From Promethearchaeota archaeon (GTDB lineage: Archaea > Asgardarchaeota > Lokiarchaeia > Sigyniarchaeales > SOKP01), in the NCBI GenBank assembly GCA_048938855.1, contig JBHLLT010000001.1:1-64000 (forward strand): a stretch of DNA of 64,000 nucleotides, in the 5' to 3' direction. Under the pieces are notes generated by a model that saw nothing but the letters and a program-made list of their open reading frames with translations, ran no database searches and was not told the origin of the DNA. Shown here one piece after another: positions 5,432 to 43,472 of this stretch (position 1 is its first letter; every line of letters begins with the position of its first letter). The translations under genes were made by a program, and so were the position numbers.

Positions 5432-6475
5432 TTAAATAATTTCCTTAAATGCTTCAAATCTTGTAGTTAATTGTTTGTATGATTCTCTATTATATTCCAT
5501 TTCGACAAAAAGATACGGAATTCCTAATTCTTTAAATTTTTTATTAAAGTAAGGATGATCATATAAAATTGGTTCACAAAATTTTTGAGCAATATTAATA
5601 ACGCCATCAACATCATATTTTGTGGCTAAGGCTTTTACAACTTCAAACCTATCATAAGAAGGAAATTTTGTAGAAAAAATAGGCTTACTTAAGTGGTATT
5701 TTGCTAATGCTTTGACAGGTTCTTCGCCTTCATCAACGTTTTGCGAAAAATATTTTGTTCCAGTGCAAAGATCATCAATAATAATATGAAATCCTAGACT
5801 TTCAAGAAATTTGATGAATTCTGTATCATCTATTACTGATCCTGTTAATAGGACTTTTTTTAATTTTTTATCCGGTTGTGGATTCTGAGTTTTTAAGTAC
5901 TCTAATTTTGATTTGAGCATATCTAAAGCTTTTTTTTTATCTAGTTGTTGCACACTTTTAACTAGAGCGTGAAAATCAGAACCTTTCAAAATCATTTTAG
6001 ATCTATATTTTGAAATATCTCTCAATAGAGTTCTGATTTGGTTCATTAATTTTATAGCGTTGCTGATTTTTTCTGAAGTAATACTTACATTAAATTTTTG
6101 GCCTAACTGGTTGATTAACTCATTTATATCATCTATATAAAAATCTAATGCTGCTTTATTACGCTTTAATGGTGCGTTTAAAAAATAGAAAAACTCAAGA
6201 TTAACGCATTCCAGCCAAATATCAAATTCACGATTTGTGCAATCACAACCATGTGTTGCAATTATTCCCTTGAAATCGTTGTCCAAACCATTTAACGCTT
6301 GTTCCAAAAGATTTTTAGCCCATATACAATGGTTTGGGGGAATGTGTTCGTTAGCTTTATCAACACTCATTGTAGGATCGCCGAATAATCTTATTGGAAT
6401 CATATCTGCTGCAATTATAATCTCTTCAGGGGTTTCAACTGCACTATCTAAGATAGCTATCTTATTCATACTCAT
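5432..6475 (-). CDS. 2-hydroxyacyl-CoA dehydratase subunit (HgdB/BcrC-like)
   Basis: PEEIIIAAD, HGCD, DDLCTG, DGVI....KFCEP, QLTTRFEAF; 12 bp upstream of its partner gene. Confidence 0.85.
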   Translation of the reverse strand: MSMNKIAILDSAVETPEEIIIAADMIPIRLFGDPTMSVDKANEHIPPNHCIWAKNLLEQALNGLDNDFKGIIATHGCDCTNREFDIWLECVNLEFFYFLNAPLKRNKAALDFYIDDINELINQLGQKFNVSITSEKISNAIKLMNQIRTLLRDISKYRSKMILKGSDFHALVKSVQQLDKKKALDMLKSKLEYLKTQNPQPDKKLKKVLLTGSVIDDTEFIKFLESLGFHIIIDDLCTGTKYFSQNVDEGEEPVKALAKYHLSKPIFSTKFPSYDRFEVVKALATKYDVDGVINIAQKFCEPILYDHPYFNKKFKELGIPYLFVEMEYNRESYKQLTTRFEAFKEII

Positions 6476-6604
6476 ACATTCAATTCTAATTTTTTATCCT
6501 AAAATCCTATAGTTCTAAATCTTGAAATATTTAAAAAAATATTTATTTAATCGTTCAATTTATTCCTTTATAGCAGCATTTAATTTTAGGAAAATAACGT
6601 TTCG

Positions 6605-6919
6605 ATGTCGGGTCAACAACAAACTCTTCACAGAACCTTATCTAAAGCCATTCTCAAAGATGAAGTAAGAATCAAGTTGAAGATTTGGAACACTTACTTA
6701 ACTGGCAAACTTGTTAAATTCGACAATTATATGAATTTAATCGTAAAAGATGCTAAGGAAATCTATTTTGGTCGCGGGGGTAAGAGAAGCAAAGATTTAG
6801 GGACTTGCATGATAAGGGGCGCCAGTATCATATTTGTCGGTCAAGATCGAGAGAAACTGATCTTCGCCCAAGATGAAGAAGTAAAATTAATGCATAGAGA
6901 AGAATCAGAAGAGGCCTAA
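6605..6919 (+). CDS. Sm/Lsm RNA-binding protein (SmAP)
   Basis: Sm1 GKLVKFDNYMNL and Sm2 MIRGASI; directly upstream of rpl37e, the conserved archaeal linkage. Confidence 0.9.
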   Translation: MSGQQQTLHRTLSKAILKDEVRIKLKIWNTYLTGKLVKFDNYMNLIVKDAKEIYFGRGGKRSKDLGTCMIRGASIIFVGQDREKLIFAQDEEVKLMHREESEEA

Positions 6920-6939
6920 ATTAGGAGAGTATTTTAAAA

Positions 6940-7161
6940 ATGGGAAAAGGAACACCGAGTAGGGGAAAAAAAAATAAAGCAGCAAGCCATAGAACATGTC
7001 GTCGGTGTGGAAGGCATTCCTACCATCGCAGAAAGAGATTTTGTGCTTACTGTGGATTTGGAAAAACAGCTAAACGCAGGTCTCCTTCATGGAGAAATAG
7101 AATTCCAGCATTTAATGGAACAAAGTCTTTTTATAGAGGGGTAAGAAAAGTAAAGGCTTAA
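6940..7161 (+). CDS. rpl37e: 50S ribosomal protein L37e
   Basis: MGKGTPSRGK...CRRCGRHSYH...CAYCGFG. Confidence 0.97.
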   Translation: MGKGTPSRGKKNKAASHRTCRRCGRHSYHRRKRFCAYCGFGKTAKRRSPSWRNRIPAFNGTKSFYRGVRKVKA

Positions 7162-7312
7162 CAGCCACAAATTTATCCTTTTATCAGTTAAAAATCTAAA
7201 AATAGATTAATACCTCAATTCTAAAATTTTATATACAGTTGCCTAATTTTCTATTTTTAAGTCGTTCAGTTAAAGTTCTAATTAATCTAAGATAAATAGA
7301 ATTTGAATAATC

Positions 7313-7696
7313 ATGTCATTTAATGATAAAGTAGTAATTGAAAGTATTAATAAAGAACTTGAAAGATTAGAACACTTAGGAGAAATTATAGGTACTGCAG
7401 TAGTGAAGCGAAATGGTTTACTTGTGTCATCAAGATTACCAAGAGATATTGACGATAGAAAACTAAGTGCTTTATCAGCTACCATGTTCGAGGGCATCGA
7501 AACGGCTACTTCGAGTTTTGAAAATAATCAAATTAAGAATATTACTGTTGAATATTTAGATTACCAATTGATAGTCGTAGGAGTAAATGACAAAATTATT
7601 TTGGTTTCTCTATCTGAAATAAATGCAAATCTTGGTTTGATCTTTATCGAAATTGAAGAAAGCATAAAAAATATCAAACAAATTATTGAGAAGTGA
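7313..7696 (+). CDS. Roadblock/LC7 domain protein
   Basis: IGTAVVKRNGLLVSS, LSALSATM, NLGLI pattern; 127 aa. Confidence 0.9.
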   Translation: MSFNDKVVIESINKELERLEHLGEIIGTAVVKRNGLLVSSRLPRDIDDRKLSALSATMFEGIETATSSFENNQIKNITVEYLDYQLIVVGVNDKIILVSLSEINANLGLIFIEIEESIKNIKQIIEK

Positions 7697-7702
7697 TTTA
7701 CC

Positions 7703-8440
7703 ATTTTAACAGAAAAACAAAAAGAGAGATTTACAAGACAAATTATTTCTCCTTTCATTGGAGAAAAAGGACAAGAAGTGATATCGAAAATTAAAGTTCT
7801 ACAAATTGGAGTTGGAGGTTTAGGTTCACCTTTTGCTTTATATCTTACAGCAGCAGGTATAAATGAATTAACGATTATTGATAATGATACCTTAGAAATA
7901 TCTAATTTACAAAGACAAATTCTTTACAATGAAACTCACATCGGTAAGGAAAAAGCAAAATCAGCTAAAGATGTATTGCTTAAGCTTAATTCAGATATTA
8001 AAGTTAATGCTTATAAGGATTATATTGATGAAAATTCTATAAAAAAATATCTAAAAGAAACTCAATATGATTTCATTGTGGATTGTTCTGACAATTTCCA
8101 GACTAAATTTTTAGTTAATAAAATAGCAGTAGAGAACAATTTAAATTGTGTTATTGCAGGTATCAAAGATTTCTATGGACAAATTATAACAATCAAACCT
8201 AAAGAAAGTGCTTGCTATCAATGCATTTTTTCAGTGATGGATTCTCCCCCTATTGAAGGCCCTTTACCAGTAATAGGCGTTACTCCTGGAATTCTAGGAA
8301 CTTTGGAAGCTTTAGAAGTGATAAAAACAGCTCTAGGACTGCCTAACTTGGAAAATAAACTTTTAATGGTTAATTTAATAGATATGAGTTTTAATATAAT
8401 TGATATCGTAAAGAACGAAAATTGCATATGCTCATCATGA
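7703..8440 (+). CDS. ThiF/MoeB/HesA E1-like adenylyltransferase (UbaA-like); probable ATT start at 7703
   Basis: GVGGLGS, SNLQRQ, DCSDNF, ACYQC. The frame upstream of the track start (7778) encodes the conserved N-terminal motif ERFTRQII...GEKGQE. The only plausible start after the in-frame TGA at 7694 is ATT 7703, behind GAGAAGTGA. Confidence 0.85.
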   Translation: MLTEKQKERFTRQIISPFIGEKGQEVISKIKVLQIGVGGLGSPFALYLTAAGINELTIIDNDTLEISNLQRQILYNETHIGKEKAKSAKDVLLKLNSDIKVNAYKDYIDENSIKKYLKETQYDFIVDCSDNFQTKFLVNKIAVENNLNCVIAGIKDFYGQIITIKPKESACYQCIFSVMDSPPIEGPLPVIGVTPGILGTLEALEVIKTALGLPNLENKLLMVNLIDMSFNIIDIVKNENCICSS

Positions 8441-35191: not shown

Positions 35192-37858
35192 TTGAGTCTC
35201 CCTTTAAGAAATTTCTTTATTATTTTTGATAGAAATCGTGATCATAAGAAAGATTTGATATTTAACGTTAACTTCTTTTATCTAAAATCATTTAAGAAGA
35301 AGAAATTTACATTTACATATGTAAAAGAACCATTTTTTAAGGGGAGCGTAATTTTAGGATCAGATTTCAAAAATAAAATTCGTCCTCTAAGTTTTAATAA
35401 AACTGAAAAAGATGGACATCAACAGCCAATTAATCCAAGATTGTTAAAAAAGTTTATATTATCTGATAAAAACAAATTTATTGCTTTTTCAAGTCAAACT
35501 CCTTCTCAAGATGTTTCATCAATTATGGAGATGCTAAGTAATTTTCAATATGACACATCTAAGATTATAAATTTAACCTTATGCAATTCTTGTATGGAAA
35601 AACATACATTTACATTAATAAATGAAAATTTTCAAATTAAATCTTATAAAGACCAAATTATTTGTTCAGAATGCGCATATGAGATTATATTGAATAGAAT
35701 TAAGCTTACAGGGCTTATTTCTCAGGAAAAGATTAGTCCTAAATTAAAGAATTTTTTAATGCATTTAATCCTCAAATTTAGAGATGTCAGAAAAGTTCTA
35801 GAAGCGTTTAAAGCAGATTTTGATCCTACAAAATCAAAGGATATCACTCTATATGACATTGAGAAAACTCCATCAATTAGTAAAAAATTTCTTAATCAAA
35901 AGATAAGTAGCTTAAGTATTCCAGTCAATTTTAAAGAGATATTAAAAAATTTAAAATTAATTAATCTATTACCCATTCAAGCAATTTCTATTGAAAAGGG
36001 TTTATTATCAGATCGTAGTAATCAATTGATTATGGCCCCTACGAGCGGAGGCAAGACTTTGGTAGGAGAATTAGCTGGAATCTCACATGTTTTAAAAGAT
36101 AAAGCTGCTAAAATGTTGTATTTAGTACCAATTGTAGCTTTAGCTAATATTAGGACAGAAGAATTTAAGGAGAAATATAAACCACTGAAGCTAAAAATCA
36201 TTAAAAAAGTTGGAGAATCATTATTTGAGAAAAAAGAAGATAAAAATAATAAAGAGTTAACGGATGCTCATATTATAATTGCCACATATGAAGCAATTGA
36301 TTTTATTTTAAGAAGTGGGAAAAGAGAACTTTTAGGAAATATTGGTACTATTATAATTGATGAAATTCAAACATTAATTGATCCTGAGAGAGGATTTATA
36401 CTAGATGGTTTAATAGCAAGATTAAAAACCCAATATAATTCTCAATTTCTATATTTAAGTGCTACATTAGGAGAACCCGAATTTTTAGCTAAAAGACTTA
36501 ACTGTAAATTGATAAAATATAATGATCGTCCTGTTCCAGTTGAACGTCATTTATTGCTTTCTTTAAGTGAAGCACAGAAACTTAAATTTATCTCATTATT
36601 AATGAAGAATGCTTATTCCACAAAATCTAAGTACGGATTTAAAGGTCAATCAATAGTTTTTACTAATACCCGAAAAAAGTGTGAATCAATTACATTTTAT
36701 TTACAACAACGTGGACTTAATGCTGCTGCTTATCATTCAGGTTTAACAAATGAAGAAAGAAAAATTATTGAAGAAGATTTTCAATCACAGAAACTAGTAG
36801 GAGTAGTAGCCACTGCAGCATTGGCAGCAGGTGTAGATCTTCCAGCTCGACAGGTAATTTTTGAATCTTTAGCAATGGGTATAAATTGGTTAACTGTTGC
36901 AGAATTTGAACAGATGCTAGGGCGTAGTGGTAGATTAAAAAAACATGAAAAAGGTTTAGCCTATCTCCTTGTTGAACCTGGAAAGATATATTCACCTAAA
37001 ATGAAGATTACTGAAGAAAATATCGCAATAAAACTTTTGAATGGAAAAATTAAAGATTATGAACTTATACCTGATATGGACAAGTCCCAAACTGAAATAT
37101 TAGCATTTATTTCAATGTTCAATCAAAGAATACCAAAGGATACCGTATATAGCTTTTATAATCTTTTAATAAATAATCATTTTGATTTGGAAGAAGTTCT
37201 AAAGAAATTAATTTCTCTTAATCTGATTCGCATAAAAGAAGATTTAACTATTAAAACAACACGAATAGGAAGAGCAATTGCAAATTCGTTTATTAGTGTT
37301 GATGGTAGTATTGAAATTATTAGGAAATTACAGAATAAGCTAGAGACACCTATGGAAATTGCCTTAAATTTAGAAACTCTCAGAAATGTATATTTATCTA
37401 AAAACATCGTTGCAGATTTATCTAAAAATGTTAATATGAAATATTTCTCAAATAATTTATTTAGCGCTAGTGTTTTATCGTTGATGAATGCAGAGTATGT
37501 AAAAAAGAGAAAATCATTTTCACGTGATTTTATTGATTTTATTATGAAGCTAACAGGCGAAGTATTCAATTGTAATTGTAAAGATAACCCGTATTGTGAA
37601 TGCGGTCGTTTAAACCTAGAAAAACTAATCCTAAATTTAAGAATAAATAGTAATATGACAATAGAAGAGATATCTAACTATTTGATGGAAGAATATAAAA
37701 TTATGATTTTTAAGGGAGATCTCATTGATTATTTAGAAAGTTTGATTTATAGTTTAGAAAGTATAAAAAATATAGCAGAAGGCATTTCCAATTTAGATGA
37801 AACATTCAACAAAGAAATAAAAGAGATACCTCACTTAATAGAGAGCATAAAATACTAA
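35192..37858 (+). CDS. Archaeal superfamily II DEAD/DEAH helicase (COG1202/DUF5814 type)
   Basis: APTSGGKT, DEIQ, LSAT, YHSGL, TAALAAGVDLPA, QMLGRSGR; C-terminal CNCKDNPYCECG. Confidence 0.92.
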   Translation: MSLPLRNFFIIFDRNRDHKKDLIFNVNFFYLKSFKKKKFTFTYVKEPFFKGSVILGSDFKNKIRPLSFNKTEKDGHQQPINPRLLKKFILSDKNKFIAFSSQTPSQDVSSIMEMLSNFQYDTSKIINLTLCNSCMEKHTFTLINENFQIKSYKDQIICSECAYEIILNRIKLTGLISQEKISPKLKNFLMHLILKFRDVRKVLEAFKADFDPTKSKDITLYDIEKTPSISKKFLNQKISSLSIPVNFKEILKNLKLINLLPIQAISIEKGLLSDRSNQLIMAPTSGGKTLVGELAGISHVLKDKAAKMLYLVPIVALANIRTEEFKEKYKPLKLKIIKKVGESLFEKKEDKNNKELTDAHIIIATYEAIDFILRSGKRELLGNIGTIIIDEIQTLIDPERGFILDGLIARLKTQYNSQFLYLSATLGEPEFLAKRLNCKLIKYNDRPVPVERHLLLSLSEAQKLKFISLLMKNAYSTKSKYGFKGQSIVFTNTRKKCESITFYLQQRGLNAAAYHSGLTNEERKIIEEDFQSQKLVGVVATAALAAGVDLPARQVIFESLAMGINWLTVAEFEQMLGRSGRLKKHEKGLAYLLVEPGKIYSPKMKITEENIAIKLLNGKIKDYELIPDMDKSQTEILAFISMFNQRIPKDTVYSFYNLLINNHFDLEEVLKKLISLNLIRIKEDLTIKTTRIGRAIANSFISVDGSIEIIRKLQNKLETPMEIALNLETLRNVYLSKNIVADLSKNVNMKYFSNNLFSASVLSLMNAEYVKKRKSFSRDFIDFIMKLTGEVFNCNCKDNPYCECGRLNLEKLILNLRINSNMTIEEISNYLMEEYKIMIFKGDLIDYLESLIYSLESIKNIAEGISNLDETFNKEIKEIPHLIESIKY

Positions 37859-39048
37859 GTTATATGTATTTCTATTACATCATAATCTTCCAAATTATAA
37901 TCTGAGCCAACTTTTTTGCGTTTCTGACGTGCTCCTTCACGTATTACTATAGCATGATCAAAATTCTCATAAAAACTTCTGTGAATTTTTTCGGCGACTT
38001 CCTTTACTGTAACACCTTCTTCCATAAGGAGAGGTTGATTAGCAACTATTCCATTACTCATGGTAAATATCCTTATCTTCTTTAAAACTTTTAAGATAAT
38101 TTCACCAAAATCTTTTGGGAAATTATCTTTATAGATACTAGTTCCTAGAATTATGGGAAATCTATCAGAATATTTCCTTTTTAAGATTTCAAAAGTCTCT
38201 TGAGTATGAGGAAGATCTCCTTTTGTACCAATTAGGATTACTTTCTTATATACAATTGAAGGGATTAAAGCATCTATAATATCATCAATAGTTATTTTAC
38301 CATATACCTTAACAATTCCATTACGAATTCCATTTTCGGTTACTATTTCTTTTATTTGTTCTGTTAAGTTGTCTAAATCCTTTATTTTCTTTGCTTTTTT
38401 AGTTAAATATAACACTTGAATCTTATTAGCACCAGTTTTTTCGATAGTTAGCGGGGGGGCGGTCTGGTTTATCCTAATTTCAGCTTTTGTTAATTCAGTT
38501 ATTAAAAGATCCATCTGTTCATTTATATTCCTTGATAAGTCAATACAAAAACATAAGAGATCTGCTGCTCTAAGTTGCGAAAGAATCTCTTTTCCATTAC
38601 CAATACCTTCCGAAGCACCTTCCATTATAGAGGGCATATCTACAATTTGAAATCTAATACTTTGATATTTATAGATTCCAATTTCTGGAATCGGGGTAAA
38701 TTTACCAATTTTTTCTTCTGCTGCACCTGTTAAATAATTTAAAAGTGTAGTTTTTCCTGCACCAGGAATATAGAAACTACTGATCAATATTATTTGGAGT
38801 CCTTCTTTTTTTATAGAGAAAGGGCTCACAATTTTTTGAGTGCTTTTCTGTTTTTGTCTGTGCTCCTCGACTTCCCGTTTCATCTTAGCTAAACGAGATT
38901 TATTGAGTGCTACAATTTTTTCTGTAGCTTTATGCTTAGGAACAAGTGATAAGAACTCTTCTAATTTCTTAATTTTTTCTTCTTTAGAACCAGCATCAAG
39001 ATATTCTTGATATTTTGCTTTTGCAGCAGGTGGTAAATTTGAGCTCAA
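37855..39048 (-). CDS. DRG/OBG-family GTP-binding protein with TGS domain (G motifs atypical)
   Basis: PKHKATEK, GAGKTT, IVDMPSIMEGASEG.GNGKE, TKGD, IHRSF, LEDYDVIEI. Confidence 0.85.
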   Translation of the reverse strand: MSSNLPPAAKAKYQEYLDAGSKEEKIKKLEEFLSLVPKHKATEKIVALNKSRLAKMKREVEEHRQKQKSTQKIVSPFSIKKEGLQIILISSFYIPGAGKTTLLNYLTGAAEEKIGKFTPIPEIGIYKYQSIRFQIVDMPSIMEGASEGIGNGKEILSQLRAADLLCFCIDLSRNINEQMDLLITELTKAEIRINQTAPPLTIEKTGANKIQVLYLTKKAKKIKDLDNLTEQIKEIVTENGIRNGIVKVYGKITIDDIIDALIPSIVYKKVILIGTKGDLPHTQETFEILKRKYSDRFPIILGTSIYKDNFPKDFGEIILKVLKKIRIFTMSNGIVANQPLLMEEGVTVKEVAEKIHRSFYENFDHAIVIREGARQKRKKVGSDYNLEDYDVIEIHIT

Positions 39049-39068
39049 AAGAAAACACTTATTAATAA

Positions 39069-39524
39069 TTAAAATAAAGATCGAAATCTATCTTCTGTTT
39101 TTAATCTTAAATCTCCTAATACTTCATTAACCCGGGATTCAAATTGCTTGAAATATTTAGGTTTTTTTGAAAATATATCATTAAGGGGATAACGGTTTAA
39201 GAAATAGGTAATTATTTGATTTAACTGGCGTTTAACTACATTTGCATCTGTTTCTTTTTCTATTATTGCATAGGTTAATAAAGGCTGTTTATCAGAATTA
39301 TCTTCGCTTGGTAGTGTAATCATCTCACAAAAACAGACCAACTTAAAGCTTGCCAGACTAATTACATTTATGTCATCACCAAAAACTTCCGACGTGAATT
39401 GCTCTAACGCTGTAAGGAAACCAGCACGTAAATTTGGATCCAAAACATCATCTGAGGATGAATAATATTTAATCTCAACTAAGTTTCGCATACCTAAATT
39501 TATTCCTACTTCAAGAACGGCCAT
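39069..39524 (-). CDS. Longin-like domain protein
   Basis: LRAGFLTALEQFTSEVFGD...LNQIITYFLNRY...FKQFESRV. Confidence 0.7.
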   Translation of the reverse strand: MAVLEVGINLGMRNLVEIKYYSSSDDVLDPNLRAGFLTALEQFTSEVFGDDINVISLASFKLVCFCEMITLPSEDNSDKQPLLTYAIIEKETDANVVKRQLNQIITYFLNRYPLNDIFSKKPKYFKQFESRVNEVLGDLRLKTEDRFRSLF

Positions 39525-40686: not shown

Positions 40687-41796
40687 TTAAATTCTTCTTC
40701 TTTTCCAAAGAAAGACAACTATTGCGATAATTAATCCGATAGAACCTAGAACGACCCCCAAAATCAAATAGTTAAACTCAACCATCCATATTTCATCATT
40801 TAGAAAAGATAATTTTTGTAATGTATTTAGAGTTTCAAATCCGTGGTAAGAAGAAGTTACTGAAGAAATTATTGATTGATCTTCTTGAAAAGTCTCTGTA
40901 AATCCACCATCCTCGAAGTTTTGATGCTTTAAAACCCATGAAACTATTTTTTGAGTGTCTAACGCCTCACTATTGATTAAAGAAATTGCTTTTACACAAT
41001 AATATGTACTACTTAATAATGCATTTGATGCTAATTCAGAAGGGAGAAATCCTCCATAATTGTCAAGATCTGCGGAAACATTGACATAAAAAGATTTGAG
41101 GTATTCCAATGTTTTATTAATATCAACAAGATCATTAATATCTCCAAATCTTTCATCGGCAAGAATAAATGCGGCAATACTTGTATCAAAAAAGGTTGAT
41201 GATAGTGTTTGATTTCCTCCATATCCACCATCTGTATTATTACATGAAAGAACCCAATTTTTATGAGTTGATACATTTGCAATCGGTTTATCTATTAATG
41301 AGTAGATTTGAATTGCATAATATGTGCAAGTAAGGCTCGATAAATGGGTAGTATTTGAAAAGGAAAAACCACCTGCAGGTTGTGCTGTTTCATTTAGAAA
41401 TTCATAAATTTTAGTTGTGAGAACTGATGTAATAGTGAACTCTAATAAGTTCAATGATTTCAATAGGTAATATATGTTATAAATATTTACTACAGTGCTA
41501 TCAAACATATCTTTAATTCTTTCTTCCAATTCAGTACCTATGGAGGTAAAATCATGTAGATTTGTTCCCATATCATTCAAAATGCTTAGTGCATAAGCTG
41601 TTGCTTCAAGAGAAACTAGTTCTTCCCCACCCTCACCACTAATAACATTAGAAAAGCCTTCTCCTTCGATTTCAGTATTTAATATGAAATCCCTTAAATA
41701 TGAATGTCGAGTTTTTCCTAATACGCTCGGAATTGCATTTATTGTTAAAATTATTGCGAAAGTAATGATGATAAATTTCCGATATTTATGTTTCAA
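40687..41796 (-). CDS. Prenyltransferase/squalene-oxidase repeat protein with a signal peptide and C-terminal TM anchor
   Basis: Repeats such as AGGFSF, WVLSCNNTDGGYG, YGGF, WVLKHQNFEDGGF, TYYA/TYYC; hydrophobic N-terminus; C-terminal TM followed by WKRRRI. Confidence 0.8.
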   Translation of the reverse strand: MKHKYRKFIIITFAIILTINAIPSVLGKTRHSYLRDFILNTEIEGEGFSNVISGEGGEELVSLEATAYALSILNDMGTNLHDFTSIGTELEERIKDMFDSTVVNIYNIYYLLKSLNLLEFTITSVLTTKIYEFLNETAQPAGGFSFSNTTHLSSLTCTYYAIQIYSLIDKPIANVSTHKNWVLSCNNTDGGYGGNQTLSSTFFDTSIAAFILADERFGDINDLVDINKTLEYLKSFYVNVSADLDNYGGFLPSELASNALLSSTYYCVKAISLINSEALDTQKIVSWVLKHQNFEDGGFTETFQEDQSIISSVTSSYHGFETLNTLQKLSFLNDEIWMVEFNYLILGVVLGSIGLIIAIVVFLWKRRRI

Positions 41797-41951: not shown

Positions 41952-43472
41952 TTAAAGGATTTCACTGATATCTCGATATAACAATTCTCTATTGACTTGA
42001 AATTGATCGTATGTGATAAATAATTTTCGAAAAGATTCTAAACTACCTAGAATCGCAGCTCCATTAAAAATAGCATATTGAAGATTATCTGGTACGAAAA
42101 ATTTGAGGACTTTACTTGCTGATTTAATAGTTTCAGAGAATTCTCTGGCAGCTGATTTTTCCTCTATTACTTTTGGGATATCGGGAATTTCTATTGATTC
42201 TATAGGCTTTCCACAATATGGGCAGAAAACAGAATCAGAATCAGGAATTTGTTTTCCACAATTTGGACAATTACCTTTTAATGGTTTTTGTGTACCATCA
42301 TCTTGCTTACTAATTTTAATCTTGGGCAATACTAATACACCACCACATGAAGGACATAAATTCTTTCCATCACTGAGATCTATAAATGCACCACAGTGAG
42401 GACAATTATCTGCCTTCTTTTTAGAAATTTCTACTGCTTGTAACTTAATTAATTCACTTTTAACAGCAGACAGAGGTGTAACTGGTTTTGGAATAGCACC
42501 TAATTCAGGAAGAATTGAATCTAATTCCACTTCAAAACGTTCTTGAAATCCTGAATATGTGAGATTTCCTCCAGAAAAAACTATATGAGATAAAAGATCA
42601 TACCAATATAAACTATCAATATTTCTTAAACTTGCGAGAATTGCTTGAGGAATATTCATGACATTACTATAACCTAGCATTGCAGGATTAAATAATACTT
42701 CTGGAGCTTGATAGAGAATATAAGTTGGAACATTAATAGTTGATCCATCGGGCATGGGAACTCCAAACATATCTCCGGATTTTATAGATTTATTTGCATC
42801 TAAAACAAAGTAACAGTTTTTTTCTTTTATTTCTTGAATAATTTCATCTGCTGCACTTGAAGCAATACTCACACCTTCTCTCATTAGTAGACTTTTTAAA
42901 TTTTGATTTACATCAATTCCTGCTAAAGAGAGTTTTTGAACAGCATGTTGCACAATTTTACCGTTTATTATTGGTACAATCCAGGTTAATCCATCCCCCG
43001 ATTCGATTACTAATCCTGTCGTTAACCCTACACTAAATAACGATAATAATGGTGTTGGCATCATCATTAAACTATTAACCCGGTGTGTTTCAAAGAAAAG
43101 TCGAGCAATATATTCTTTTGTATCCTTATTTATGAAAGGCGATTCACAATAAAAAACTGGATATTTAGACAGATCTTCGATTCTAAGTAGTGAATAAAAA
43201 ATATAATTCAAGATTTCATAGTAACTTTCCCAATCCATAATTTCTCCACGACTTAAAGGATGTTTGATTTTTAATACCCCCCTCATCCGTGATACATCGT
43301 TTCCAACATAAATACTTCTAGCACTTACATCGACCATGACAGATTTGTATTTTTCAGTTCCAGTAATACAAGGGAATACAAATCTTGGTCCAGGTTCTCC
43401 CGCAAATCCTATTTTGACATATGCTGATCCGATATCAATTATAATTGGGGTTCCAGCTAAAGGTAGTGCCAT
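41952..43472 (-). CDS. Actin-family protein (Asgard actin/ARP) with a zinc-ribbon insertion
   Basis: IIIDIGSAYVKIGFAGE..PRFVFP, IKHPL.RG.I.DW, VGLTTGLVIESGDGLT..VPI, EIKEKNCY, PEVLFNP, VFSGG, NGAAILGSL; insert carries CPHC, CPSC, CPNC, CPYC. Confidence 0.93.
   Translation of the reverse strand: MALPLAGTPIIIDIGSAYVKIGFAGEPGPRFVFPCITGTEKYKSVMVDVSARSIYVGNDVSRMRGVLKIKHPLSRGEIMDWESYYEILNYIFYSLLRIEDLSKYPVFYCESPFINKDTKEYIARLFFETHRVNSLMMMPTPLLSLFSVGLTTGLVIESGDGLTWIVPIINGKIVQHAVQKLSLAGIDVNQNLKSLLMREGVSIASSAADEIIQEIKEKNCYFVLDANKSIKSGDMFGVPMPDGSTINVPTYILYQAPEVLFNPAMLGYSNVMNIPQAILASLRNIDSLYWYDLLSHIVFSGGNLTYSGFQERFEVELDSILPELGAIPKPVTPLSAVKSELIKLQAVEISKKKADNCPHCGAFIDLSDGKNLCPSCGGVLVLPKIKISKQDDGTQKPLKGNCPNCGKQIPDSDSVFCPYCGKPIESIEIPDIPKVIEEKSAAREFSETIKSASKVLKFFVPDNLQYAIFNGAAILGSLESFRKLFITYDQFQVNRELLYRDISEIL

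What the first reader, a model, noticed from the sequence alone, without database searches (positions are those of the whole stretch)
41952..43472. Actin with a roughly 125-aa double zinc-ribbon insertion
Seen: a recognisable actin core including a D-loop-like GTEKYKSVMVDV. Between FQERFEVELDSILP and the final YAIFNGAAILGSL segment is an insert with CPHC, CPSC, CPNC and CPYC (about 42213-42404) flanked by Pro/Lys-rich linkers; phosphate-2 reads IESGDG instead of DSGDG. Established: eukaryotic ARPs diverge from actin by loop insertions, and this site is the subdomain-3 loop near actin residue 325. Inference: a specialised ARP whose zinc ribbons recruit partners or alter filament contacts.
Basis: partly seen in the sequence, partly recalled or inferred. 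Interest (0 to 1): 0.72.

Follow-up and report, generated by a model that had tools for sequence, protein, structure and literature searches.

The report
Asgard actin relative with zinc ribbons
This is a real, single-copy actin relative kept across one order of Loki-type Asgard archaea; it carries one or two zinc-binding modules in a surface loop, has lost actin's ATP-splitting residues, and keeps only one of actin's two filament-joining faces, so it may cap or anchor the archaeal actin filament rather than build one.

Summary
Observation confirmed. A 506-aa actin fold (AlphaFold pLDDT 89) carries a ~130-aa insert (residues 325-454) with two tandem C4 zinc ribbons in the subdomain-3 loop at actin 323-325. 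It is not a chimera: orthologues occur in 143 of 154 genomes of one Lokiarchaeia order and were not found elsewhere in the phylum sample. They form a clade (SH-aLRT 100) apart from Lokiactin (37% identity), under purifying selection. P. syntrophicum has two ribbons. The Ca. L. ossiferum orthologue UYP44711.1 has one; it is already in a published ARP tree, with no insert described. Nucleotide-binding glycines and lysines are kept, but Q137 is T/S/A in 319/319 and H73 is R. The scan reported this family before on other DNA. New here: it keeps Lokiactin's pointed-end face (R62, G63, P243-D244-G245 invariant) and lost the barbed-end face, while a second paralogue shows the mirror pattern (contrast p about 1e-4, optimistic). 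A toroid membrane-protein gene follows it in 105/106 loci. Best reading (0.42, untested): a hydrolysis-poor barbed-end cap or anchor for Lokiactin filaments, with ribbons binding membrane-side partners.

The parts
41952..43472 (-). Actin-related protein gene (here ARP-Z), 506 aa
42501..43472 (-). Actin core, residues 1-324, colinear with actin up to about residue 323
   Evidence: pLDDT mostly above 90; dN/dS 0.064
43326..43352 (-). D-loop equivalent (K41 Y42 ... M46 = actin R39 H40 M44), conserved and Lokiactin-like
   Evidence: K 316/319, Y 318/319, M 302/319
43275..43286 (-). MRGV 63-66 (actin 61-64), pointed-face contact; R64 = actin R62
   Evidence: R and G 319/319
43248..43250 (-). R75 replacing actin H73
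   Evidence: 319/319
43053..43055 (-). T140 replacing catalytic actin Q137
   Evidence: T192, S121, A6, no Q
43002..43004 (-). E157 replacing actin D154 (IESGDG)
   Evidence: E 309/319
42981..42983 (-). W164 replacing actin H161
   Evidence: W235, T29, N20, H15, S13
42744..42752 (-). PDG 241-243 (actin P243-D244-G245), pointed-face contact in subdomain 4
   Evidence: each 319/319
42111..42500 (-). Insert, residues 325-454, in the subdomain-3 loop at actin 323-325
   Evidence: dN/dS 0.19 overall, first linker 0.07
42327..42413 (-). C4 zinc ribbon 1 (C357, C360, C373, C376), present in all orthologues
   Evidence: four Cys invariant in 118 diverse orthologues; pLDDT about 92; zinc binding inferred, not measured
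42198..42275 (-). C4 zinc ribbon 2 (C402, C405, C417, C420), absent in family f32 and the Lokiarchaeum branch
   Evidence: pLDDT about 85
41952..42110 (-). Resumed actin core, residues 455-506, and stop codon
   Evidence: dN/dS 0.07
40687..41796 (-). Fixed downstream neighbour: N-terminal signal/TM, prenyltransferase-like alpha/alpha toroid, C-terminal TM and 5-8 residue basic tail
   Evidence: Pfam PF00432 E 1e-25; next gene in 105/106 loci; tails; single copy in this genome
44089..44487 (-). ModE-like winged-helix regulator, usual upstream neighbour (93 of 113 loci)
   Evidence: TIGR00637 E 8.5e-12, below the cut-off

Best explanation
ARP-Z is an order-specific Asgard actin paralogue that works as a non-polymerising end subunit and adaptor for Lokiactin filaments. 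Shown: actin fold; kept nucleotide-binding scaffold; loss of Q137, H161 and H73; conserved subdomain 2/4 (pointed) face; diverged subdomain 1/3 (barbed) face, with the ribbon insert in one of its contact loops. Inferred step 1: it binds nucleotide but hydrolyses poorly. Inferred step 2: it docks by its D-loop, R62 and PDG onto the exposed barbed end of a Lokiactin filament, and no further subunit adds well on its altered face, so it caps or terminates the filament. Inferred step 3 (weakest): the flexibly tethered ribbons bind a partner on the cytoplasmic side of the membrane, perhaps in a complex that includes the co-encoded toroid surface protein, and so anchor filament ends to the cortex. 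The identity as a conserved, hydrolysis-altered ARP is about 0.95 certain; the confidence given is for the capping/anchoring mechanism.
For: With contact segments taken from PMC10019781, identity to Lokiactin is 0.44 on the pointed face and 0.21 on the barbed face (p 0.039; BLOSUM-positive 0.64 vs 0.36, p 0.011). The paralogue ARPb shows the mirror, 0.32 vs 0.53; contrast p 0.0001. Both named salt bridges lose only their barbed half: R62 74/74 but D288 variable; D244 74/74 but R290 becomes W in 61/74. The pattern holds in the deepest one-ribbon family. Lokiactin is a separate gene in the same genome and keeps every catalytic residue. In L. ossiferum, Lokiactin transcripts are severalfold higher than those of the other homologues, including this orthologue (PMC9834061), which fits a substoichiometric regulator. 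The same ribbon type occurs in 42 other ORFs of this genome, 26 with predicted TM helices against about 30% background (crude). Precedent: haloarchaeal CdpC uses zinc ribbons on a flexible linker to bind FtsZ1 and the membrane (10.64898/2026.07.16.738847). The toroid gene is adjacent in 105/106 loci, and the ModE-ARP-toroid block is missing together from the 100%-complete G040.
Against: No binding, capping or ATPase data exist. Residue-level permutation treats sites as independent and overstates significance. I had seen the per-site table before choosing segments, and with my own wider lists the ARP-Z effect was borderline (p 0.049) and the ARPb effect not significant (p 0.40). Arp2 and Arp3 also have elongated subdomain-3 loops (PMC2651865) yet template growth from their barbed face, so the insert alone need not block it. 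Lateral (interstrand) contacts are poorly kept, 0.25. PDG is also kept in ARPb and may be structural. The neighbour's domain is extracellular and its cytoplasmic tail is only 5-8 residues; in G305 the two genes are apart. The block is dispensable in at least one genome (G040).
Confidence: 0.42

Rival explanations
1. Filament-independent scaffold: a monomeric, ATP-bound pseudo-enzyme like the nuclear Arp4/Arp6/Arp8 (own knowledge), whose conserved subdomain 2/4 face binds a non-actin partner and whose ribbons bind protein or nucleic acid.
For: Catalytic residues are gone. Lateral contacts are diverged. Neighbours (ModE-like regulator, FolD, CBS) are not cytoskeletal. Large loop inserts typify non-polymerising ARPs (own knowledge).
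Against: The conserved face matches Lokiactin's own residues (K39, Y40, M44, G63, V64), not a new motif, after deep divergence. Insert charge varies from slightly basic to strongly acidic (K+R/D+E 19/16 here, 14/32 in L. ossiferum), unlike a conserved nucleic-acid binder.
Confidence: 0.25
2. ARP-Z and ARPb act together: either a direct heterodimer (ARP-Z pointed face on ARPb barbed face) or the two caps of a short Lokiactin minifilament, as in dynactin or the spectrin junctional complex.
For: Mirror conservation of faces. Both paralogues are near-universal in families f1 and f2.
Against: ARPb was not found in the four f32 genomes or in G301 (63-88% complete), which have ARP-Z with the same face. 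G040 has ARPb without ARP-Z. The genes are not linked.
Confidence: 0.14
3. ARP-Z forms its own filament, or co-polymerises with Lokiactin, with co-evolved contacts; the ribbons decorate the filament surface.
For: The D-loop is full length. The barbed face has its own conserved residues (W at 290 in 296/319, F at 143, T148), which could be a remodelled interface.
Against: Q137 is lost in all orthologues. W-loop positions 166, 167 and 169 and positions 287-288 vary widely while their pointed-face partners are invariant; self-polymers should constrain both sides.
Confidence: 0.14
4. Assembly chimera or a neutral, decaying insertion.
For: Linkers evolve faster (dN/dS 0.3-0.4). One extra copy in G365 lacks the insert.
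Against: The insert is present in 319 distinct sequences from four families, including closed genomes. Ribbon-1 cysteines are invariant.
Confidence: 0.01

Closest known systems
Lokiactin / eukaryotic actin (Pfam PF00022; best PDB sequence hit 9wc4 'HC1 actin')
   Same: Fold (Foldseek TM by target about 0.9); D11, G13, K18, G156, G158, K213, E214, G301, G302; D-loop, R62 and PDG.
   Different: 37% identity; separate clade; Q137, H161, H73 and D154 replaced; barbed face diverged; 100-210-aa ribbon insert.
'Asgard ARPs' of Rodrigues-Oliveira et al. (PMC9834061): L. ossiferum UYP44711.1; P. syntrophicum QEE17409.1
   Same: These are orthologues: same clade, same insert site, same gene neighbours.
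   Different: Published only as a branch of a trimmed tree and a qPCR target; no insert, ribbon or function is described in the main text. UYP44711.1 has one ribbon, this protein two.
Eukaryotic Arp2/Arp3
   Same: Actin paralogues with elongated subdomain-3 loops (PMC2651865) that act at filament ends.
   Different: Their loops are short and carry no folded zinc domain. They present a usable barbed face (own knowledge), the opposite polarity to that inferred here. ARPb, not ARP-Z, has the Arp2/3- or Arp11-like polarity.
Nuclear ARPs (Arp4, Arp5, Arp6, Arp8)
   Same: Non-polymerising, large loop insertions, altered hydrolysis (own knowledge).
   Different: No orthology shown; no chromatin-remodeller context found; their inserts are not zinc ribbons (own knowledge).
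Haloferax CdpC (10.64898/2026.07.16.738847)
   Same: Archaeal zinc ribbons on flexible linkers, used to connect a cytoskeletal filament to the membrane.
   Different: A separate protein that binds FtsZ1; homology to this insert was not tested. It is a functional precedent only.

Membership tests
Actin family (PF00022) | Actin fold and Pfam score above the cut-off | tested here: met
   209.9 bits vs cut-off 27; model and Foldseek
Actin family (PF00022) | Phosphate-1, phosphate-2 and adenosine motifs | tested here: met
   D13, G15, K20, G159, G161, K216, E217, G301, G302 conserved; D154 is E; nucleotide binding itself not measured
Lokiactin (bona fide Asgard actin) | Falls in the Lokiactin clade with high identity (75% or more among those sampled) | tested here: not met
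   37% identity; separate clade; the true Lokiactin is on contig C79
Lokiactin (bona fide Asgard actin) | Catalytic Q137, H161 and H73 | tested here: not met
   T/S/A, mostly W, and R; Lokiactins 14/14 canonical
Lokiactin (bona fide Asgard actin) | Both longitudinal contact faces conserved | tested here: not met
   barbed face 0.21 identity; D288 and R290 lost
Lokiactin (bona fide Asgard actin) | Forms F-actin-like filaments | not testable with these tools
   needs polymerisation assay and EM
Published Asgard ARP group containing UYP44711.1 | Monophyly with UYP44711.1 and QEE17409.1 | tested here: met
   one clade, SH-aLRT 100, on core-only sequences, quick tree without bootstrap
Arp2/Arp3 | Orthology to Arp2 or Arp3 | tested here: inconclusive
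   the clade holds no eukaryotic row, but no labelled Arp2/Arp3 references were in the tree and deep branches are unresolved
Arp2/Arp3 | Barbed face kept to template a daughter filament | tested here: not met
Arp2/Arp3 | ARPC1-5 partner subunits | not tested
   none among the neighbours; genome not searched for them
C4 zinc ribbon (PF13248, PF13240, PF12773) | Two CxxC knuckles 10-14 residues apart, Pfam above cut-off | tested here: met
   49.2, 34.3 and 31.2 bits vs cut-offs 27, 25 and 27.3; spacings
C4 zinc ribbon (PF13248, PF13240, PF12773) | Binds zinc | not testable with these tools
   needs metal analysis

The most novel reading that the evidence does not exclude
Lokiarchaeia of this order split actin's two polymerisation faces between two paralogues, independently of eukaryotes. 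ARP-Z is a barbed-end cap that carries its own zinc-ribbon tether to the membrane, and ARPb is a pointed-end cap or nucleator. That would give an archaeon polarity-specific end control of its actin filaments using actin paralogues, including an actin-fold barbed-end capper, a role eukaryotes give to unrelated folds (capping protein, gelsolin; own knowledge).
Probability: 0.25. Interest if true: 0.85.

Novelty: new variant of a known kind. Interest (0 to 1): 0.6.

Why it matters
Cultured Asgard archaea have Lokiactin-filled, motile protrusions (PMC9834061, PMC13716822). How their filaments are terminated and attached to the membrane is open, and I found no assigned function for the extra actin homologues in the papers I could read. 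This family is present in both model organisms (P. syntrophicum QEE17409.1, L. ossiferum UYP44711.1) and gives a residue-level, directly testable prediction about filament polarity control. I found no other actin with a folded zinc domain inserted at this site in the PDB sequence search or among the 150 best profile hits over 1.8 billion representatives. The family is restricted to one order, so it bears on parallel elaboration of the actin system rather than on direct eukaryotic ancestry.

Tried and rejected
First AlphaFold run on 60 close orthologues failed (pLDDT 50); a deeper alignment fixed it. ESM Atlas feature search of the insert gave no usable hit; the structure search returned only the family's own 79-member cluster and ordinary actins. 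PHROGs and PADLOC were not searched. Sigma-70 promoter scan: chance level, and the wrong promoter type for archaea. Literature: accession search found only PMC9834061; other searches found no description of the insert. The J. Bacteriol. 2024 review on archaeal actins and Chou and Pollard 2019 were not held, supplements were not read, and most subscription papers are not searched, so prior mention cannot be excluded. Long actin hits (P0129, P0130, Helarchaeales 777-853 aa) are tandem or C-terminal fusions without this insert. The three f17 hits at E about 1e-111 are 384-aa open frames; the one fetched is an ordinary Lokiactin. The careful tree did not finish; only quick trees are used, with a midpoint root. 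RNA data are contigs from one study and cannot prove one transcript.

Full report
Observation. The ORF at 41952-43472 (minus strand) encodes 506 aa without a stop. Pfam Actin covers 9-322 and zinc-ribbon models cover 357-424, all above their cut-offs. PDB actins align in two blocks, 5-323 and about 455-493. The four CxxC lie at 357, 373, 402 and 417 (nt 42404-42213). The insert is about 130 aa, placed after Lokiactin residue 330, i.e. actin 323-325. AlphaFold2 with a 146-row alignment gave mean pLDDT 89: core mostly above 90, ribbon 1 about 92, ribbon 2 about 85, linkers 45-67. Foldseek matched actins with TM by target about 0.9. So the core is intact and two small domains hang from one loop on flexible tethers.

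What it is. Relatives are named Promethearchaeota/Lokiarchaeia. The genome has three actins: this one, a Lokiactin on C79 and a third paralogue, ARPb, on C41. ARP-Z is 37% identical to its own Lokiactin. On core-only sequences it forms one clade (SH-aLRT 100), apart from Lokiactin (99) and ARPb (100) (quick tree). A profile finds it in 143 of 154 genomes of the order (four families). It was not found in 7 genomes of other Lokiarchaeia orders or in the rest of a 400-genome phylum sample; most genomes that lack it are incomplete. Named members are H. repetitus MCF2140085.1, P. syntrophicum QEE17409.1 and L. ossiferum UYP44711.1. The last is one of three homologues that PMC9834061 places among Asgard ARPs and measured by RT-qPCR, with Lokiactin severalfold higher. 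Family f32, the deepest branch under a midpoint root, and the Lokiarchaeum branch have one ribbon, which scores as ribbon 1; the others have two. The simplest history is one ribbon inserted once, duplicated, and the copy lost again in Lokiarchaeum; the root is not tested. Selection is purifying throughout: dN/dS core 0.064, first linker 0.069, ribbons 0.13 and 0.19, other linkers 0.3-0.4. One genome, G365, has an extra fast-evolving copy nested in the clade that lacks the insert cleanly, so the insert is modular.

Active site. Across 319 distinct orthologues D11, G13, K18, G156, G158, K213, E214, G301 and G302 are kept. Q137 is T, S or A in all, H161 is mostly W, H73 is always R, and D154 is E in 309; S14 is E or Q in deep branches. 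All 14 Lokiactins keep Q137, H161, H73 and D154. From the established roles of these residues (own knowledge) I infer nucleotide binding with poor hydrolysis. Earlier scan notes had flagged these changes; I tested them here.

Filament faces. In F-actin, subdomains 2 and 4 of one protomer (D-loop, 195-208, 243-247) contact subdomain 3 of the next (W-loop 165-172, 283-294), with R62-D288 and D244-R290 salt bridges (PMC10019781). On these segments, 74 diverse ARP-Z sequences match the Lokiactin consensus at 0.44 on the pointed face and 0.21 on the barbed face (p 0.039; similarity 0.64 vs 0.36, p 0.011). Thirteen ARPb sequences give the mirror, 0.32 vs 0.53; the contrast has p about 1e-4. ARP-Z keeps R62 and D244 in every sequence but loses D288 and has W for R290. 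ARPb loses R62 and M44 but keeps D286, D288, R290, Y143 and H173. The insert sits in the 322-325 loop, which is also part of the barbed-face contact (own knowledge). Limits: sites are not independent; I had seen the per-site table first; my own wider lists gave p 0.049 for ARP-Z and no significance for ARPb; lateral contacts are poorly kept; and Arp2/Arp3 tolerate subdomain-3 loop inserts without losing the barbed face (PMC2651865). A subunit with only the pointed face can add to a barbed end but cannot be extended, which gives the capping hypothesis.

Context. A gene for a surface protein (signal, prenyltransferase-like toroid, C-terminal TM, 5-8 residue basic tail) follows directly in 105 of 106 loci with enough flank, across all four families; some loci repeat genomes, and kin are not independent. 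FolD, a ModE-like regulator and a CBS protein are looser neighbours. In G305 the toroid gene lies elsewhere. In G040 (100% complete) ARP-Z, the toroid orthologue and the ModE-like gene are all not found, and other genes stand upstream of FolD on a continuing contig: one joint loss. In L. ossiferum RNA libraries of one study, a contig of run X3 runs from 5538 to 8326 of L198, matching the two genes (5556-6704 and 6804-8303), and X4 adds the ModE-like gene. This is a weak hint of co-transcription only. The ribbon type is a common module here: 42 other ORFs match, 26 with predicted TM helices against about 30% background, including RDD and CAAX-protease-like proteins (crude). Haloarchaeal CdpC shows that such ribbons can bind a filament and the membrane.

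Mechanism. Best (0.42): a hydrolysis-poor end subunit that caps Lokiactin barbed ends and is tethered to membrane-side partners by its ribbons. Rivals: filament-independent scaffold (0.25); obligatory partner of ARPb (0.14), weakened by ARP-Z without ARPb in f32 and the reverse in G040; own filament or co-polymer (0.14); artefact (0.01). Nothing about binding is shown.

Novelty. It is a member of the actin family and of an already plotted Asgard ARP branch, not a Lokiactin, and not shown to be Arp2/3. I found no paper describing the insert, the catalytic changes or the face asymmetry, within a library that lacks most subscription papers. This scan has seen the family in 57 windows of 42 genomes; a word search of its notes found none stating the pointed-face or cap reading for it. 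Verdict: new variant of a known kind, interest 0.6, rising to about 0.85 if polarity-specific capping by the two paralogues is true.

Noticed in passing
L130:4797-5915 (G000:C41:44796-45914): Third actin paralogue (ARPb, 373 aa), near-universal in families f1 and f2: keeps barbed-face residues (Y143, Y166, H173, D286, D288, R290), lost M44, R62 and Q137, H161 is R; a candidate pointed-end cap or nucleator.
   Followed up: partly
L271:4976-6130: G365 carries a second, fast-evolving ARP-Z copy (385 aa) with the whole insert deleted, besides the full-length gene; single MAG.
   Followed up: partly
L272:3137-4273: G352 has a faster-evolving Lokiactin-like gene (75% mean identity to Lokiactins), nested next to family f1 Lokiactin.
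   Followed up: no
window 40687-41796: Toroid surface protein ends in a conserved TM plus basic tail (KRRRI, YKNRI, RRNRI), resembling a sorting or retention signal; weak Pfam Ribophorin II N-terminal hit (E 0.02); more distant homologues occur in many other Asgard families.
   Followed up: partly
L159:1480-3810, L160:70-2628, L158, L161: Divergent actins with 300-480-aa C-terminal extensions in other Lokiarchaeia orders and family f6; no Pfam domain in the extensions of the three scanned.
   Followed up: no
P0129, P0130, P0138: Tandem double-actin proteins (742-767 aa) among the profile hits.
   Followed up: no
L270:4000-9440: In G040 a cluster that looks like lysine-fermentation genes (by eye, not tested) stands where the ModE-ARP-toroid block normally lies upstream of FolD.
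   Followed up: partly
window 37855-39524: DRG/Obg-like GTPase next to a longin-like gene, conserved downstream of FolD in family f1.
   Followed up: no
window 42444-42473: Predicted helix 334-343 in the first linker; the linker is as constrained as the core (dN/dS 0.07) in close orthologues. With conserved E444-F445 and the new W290 it may fold back on the barbed face.
   Followed up: no
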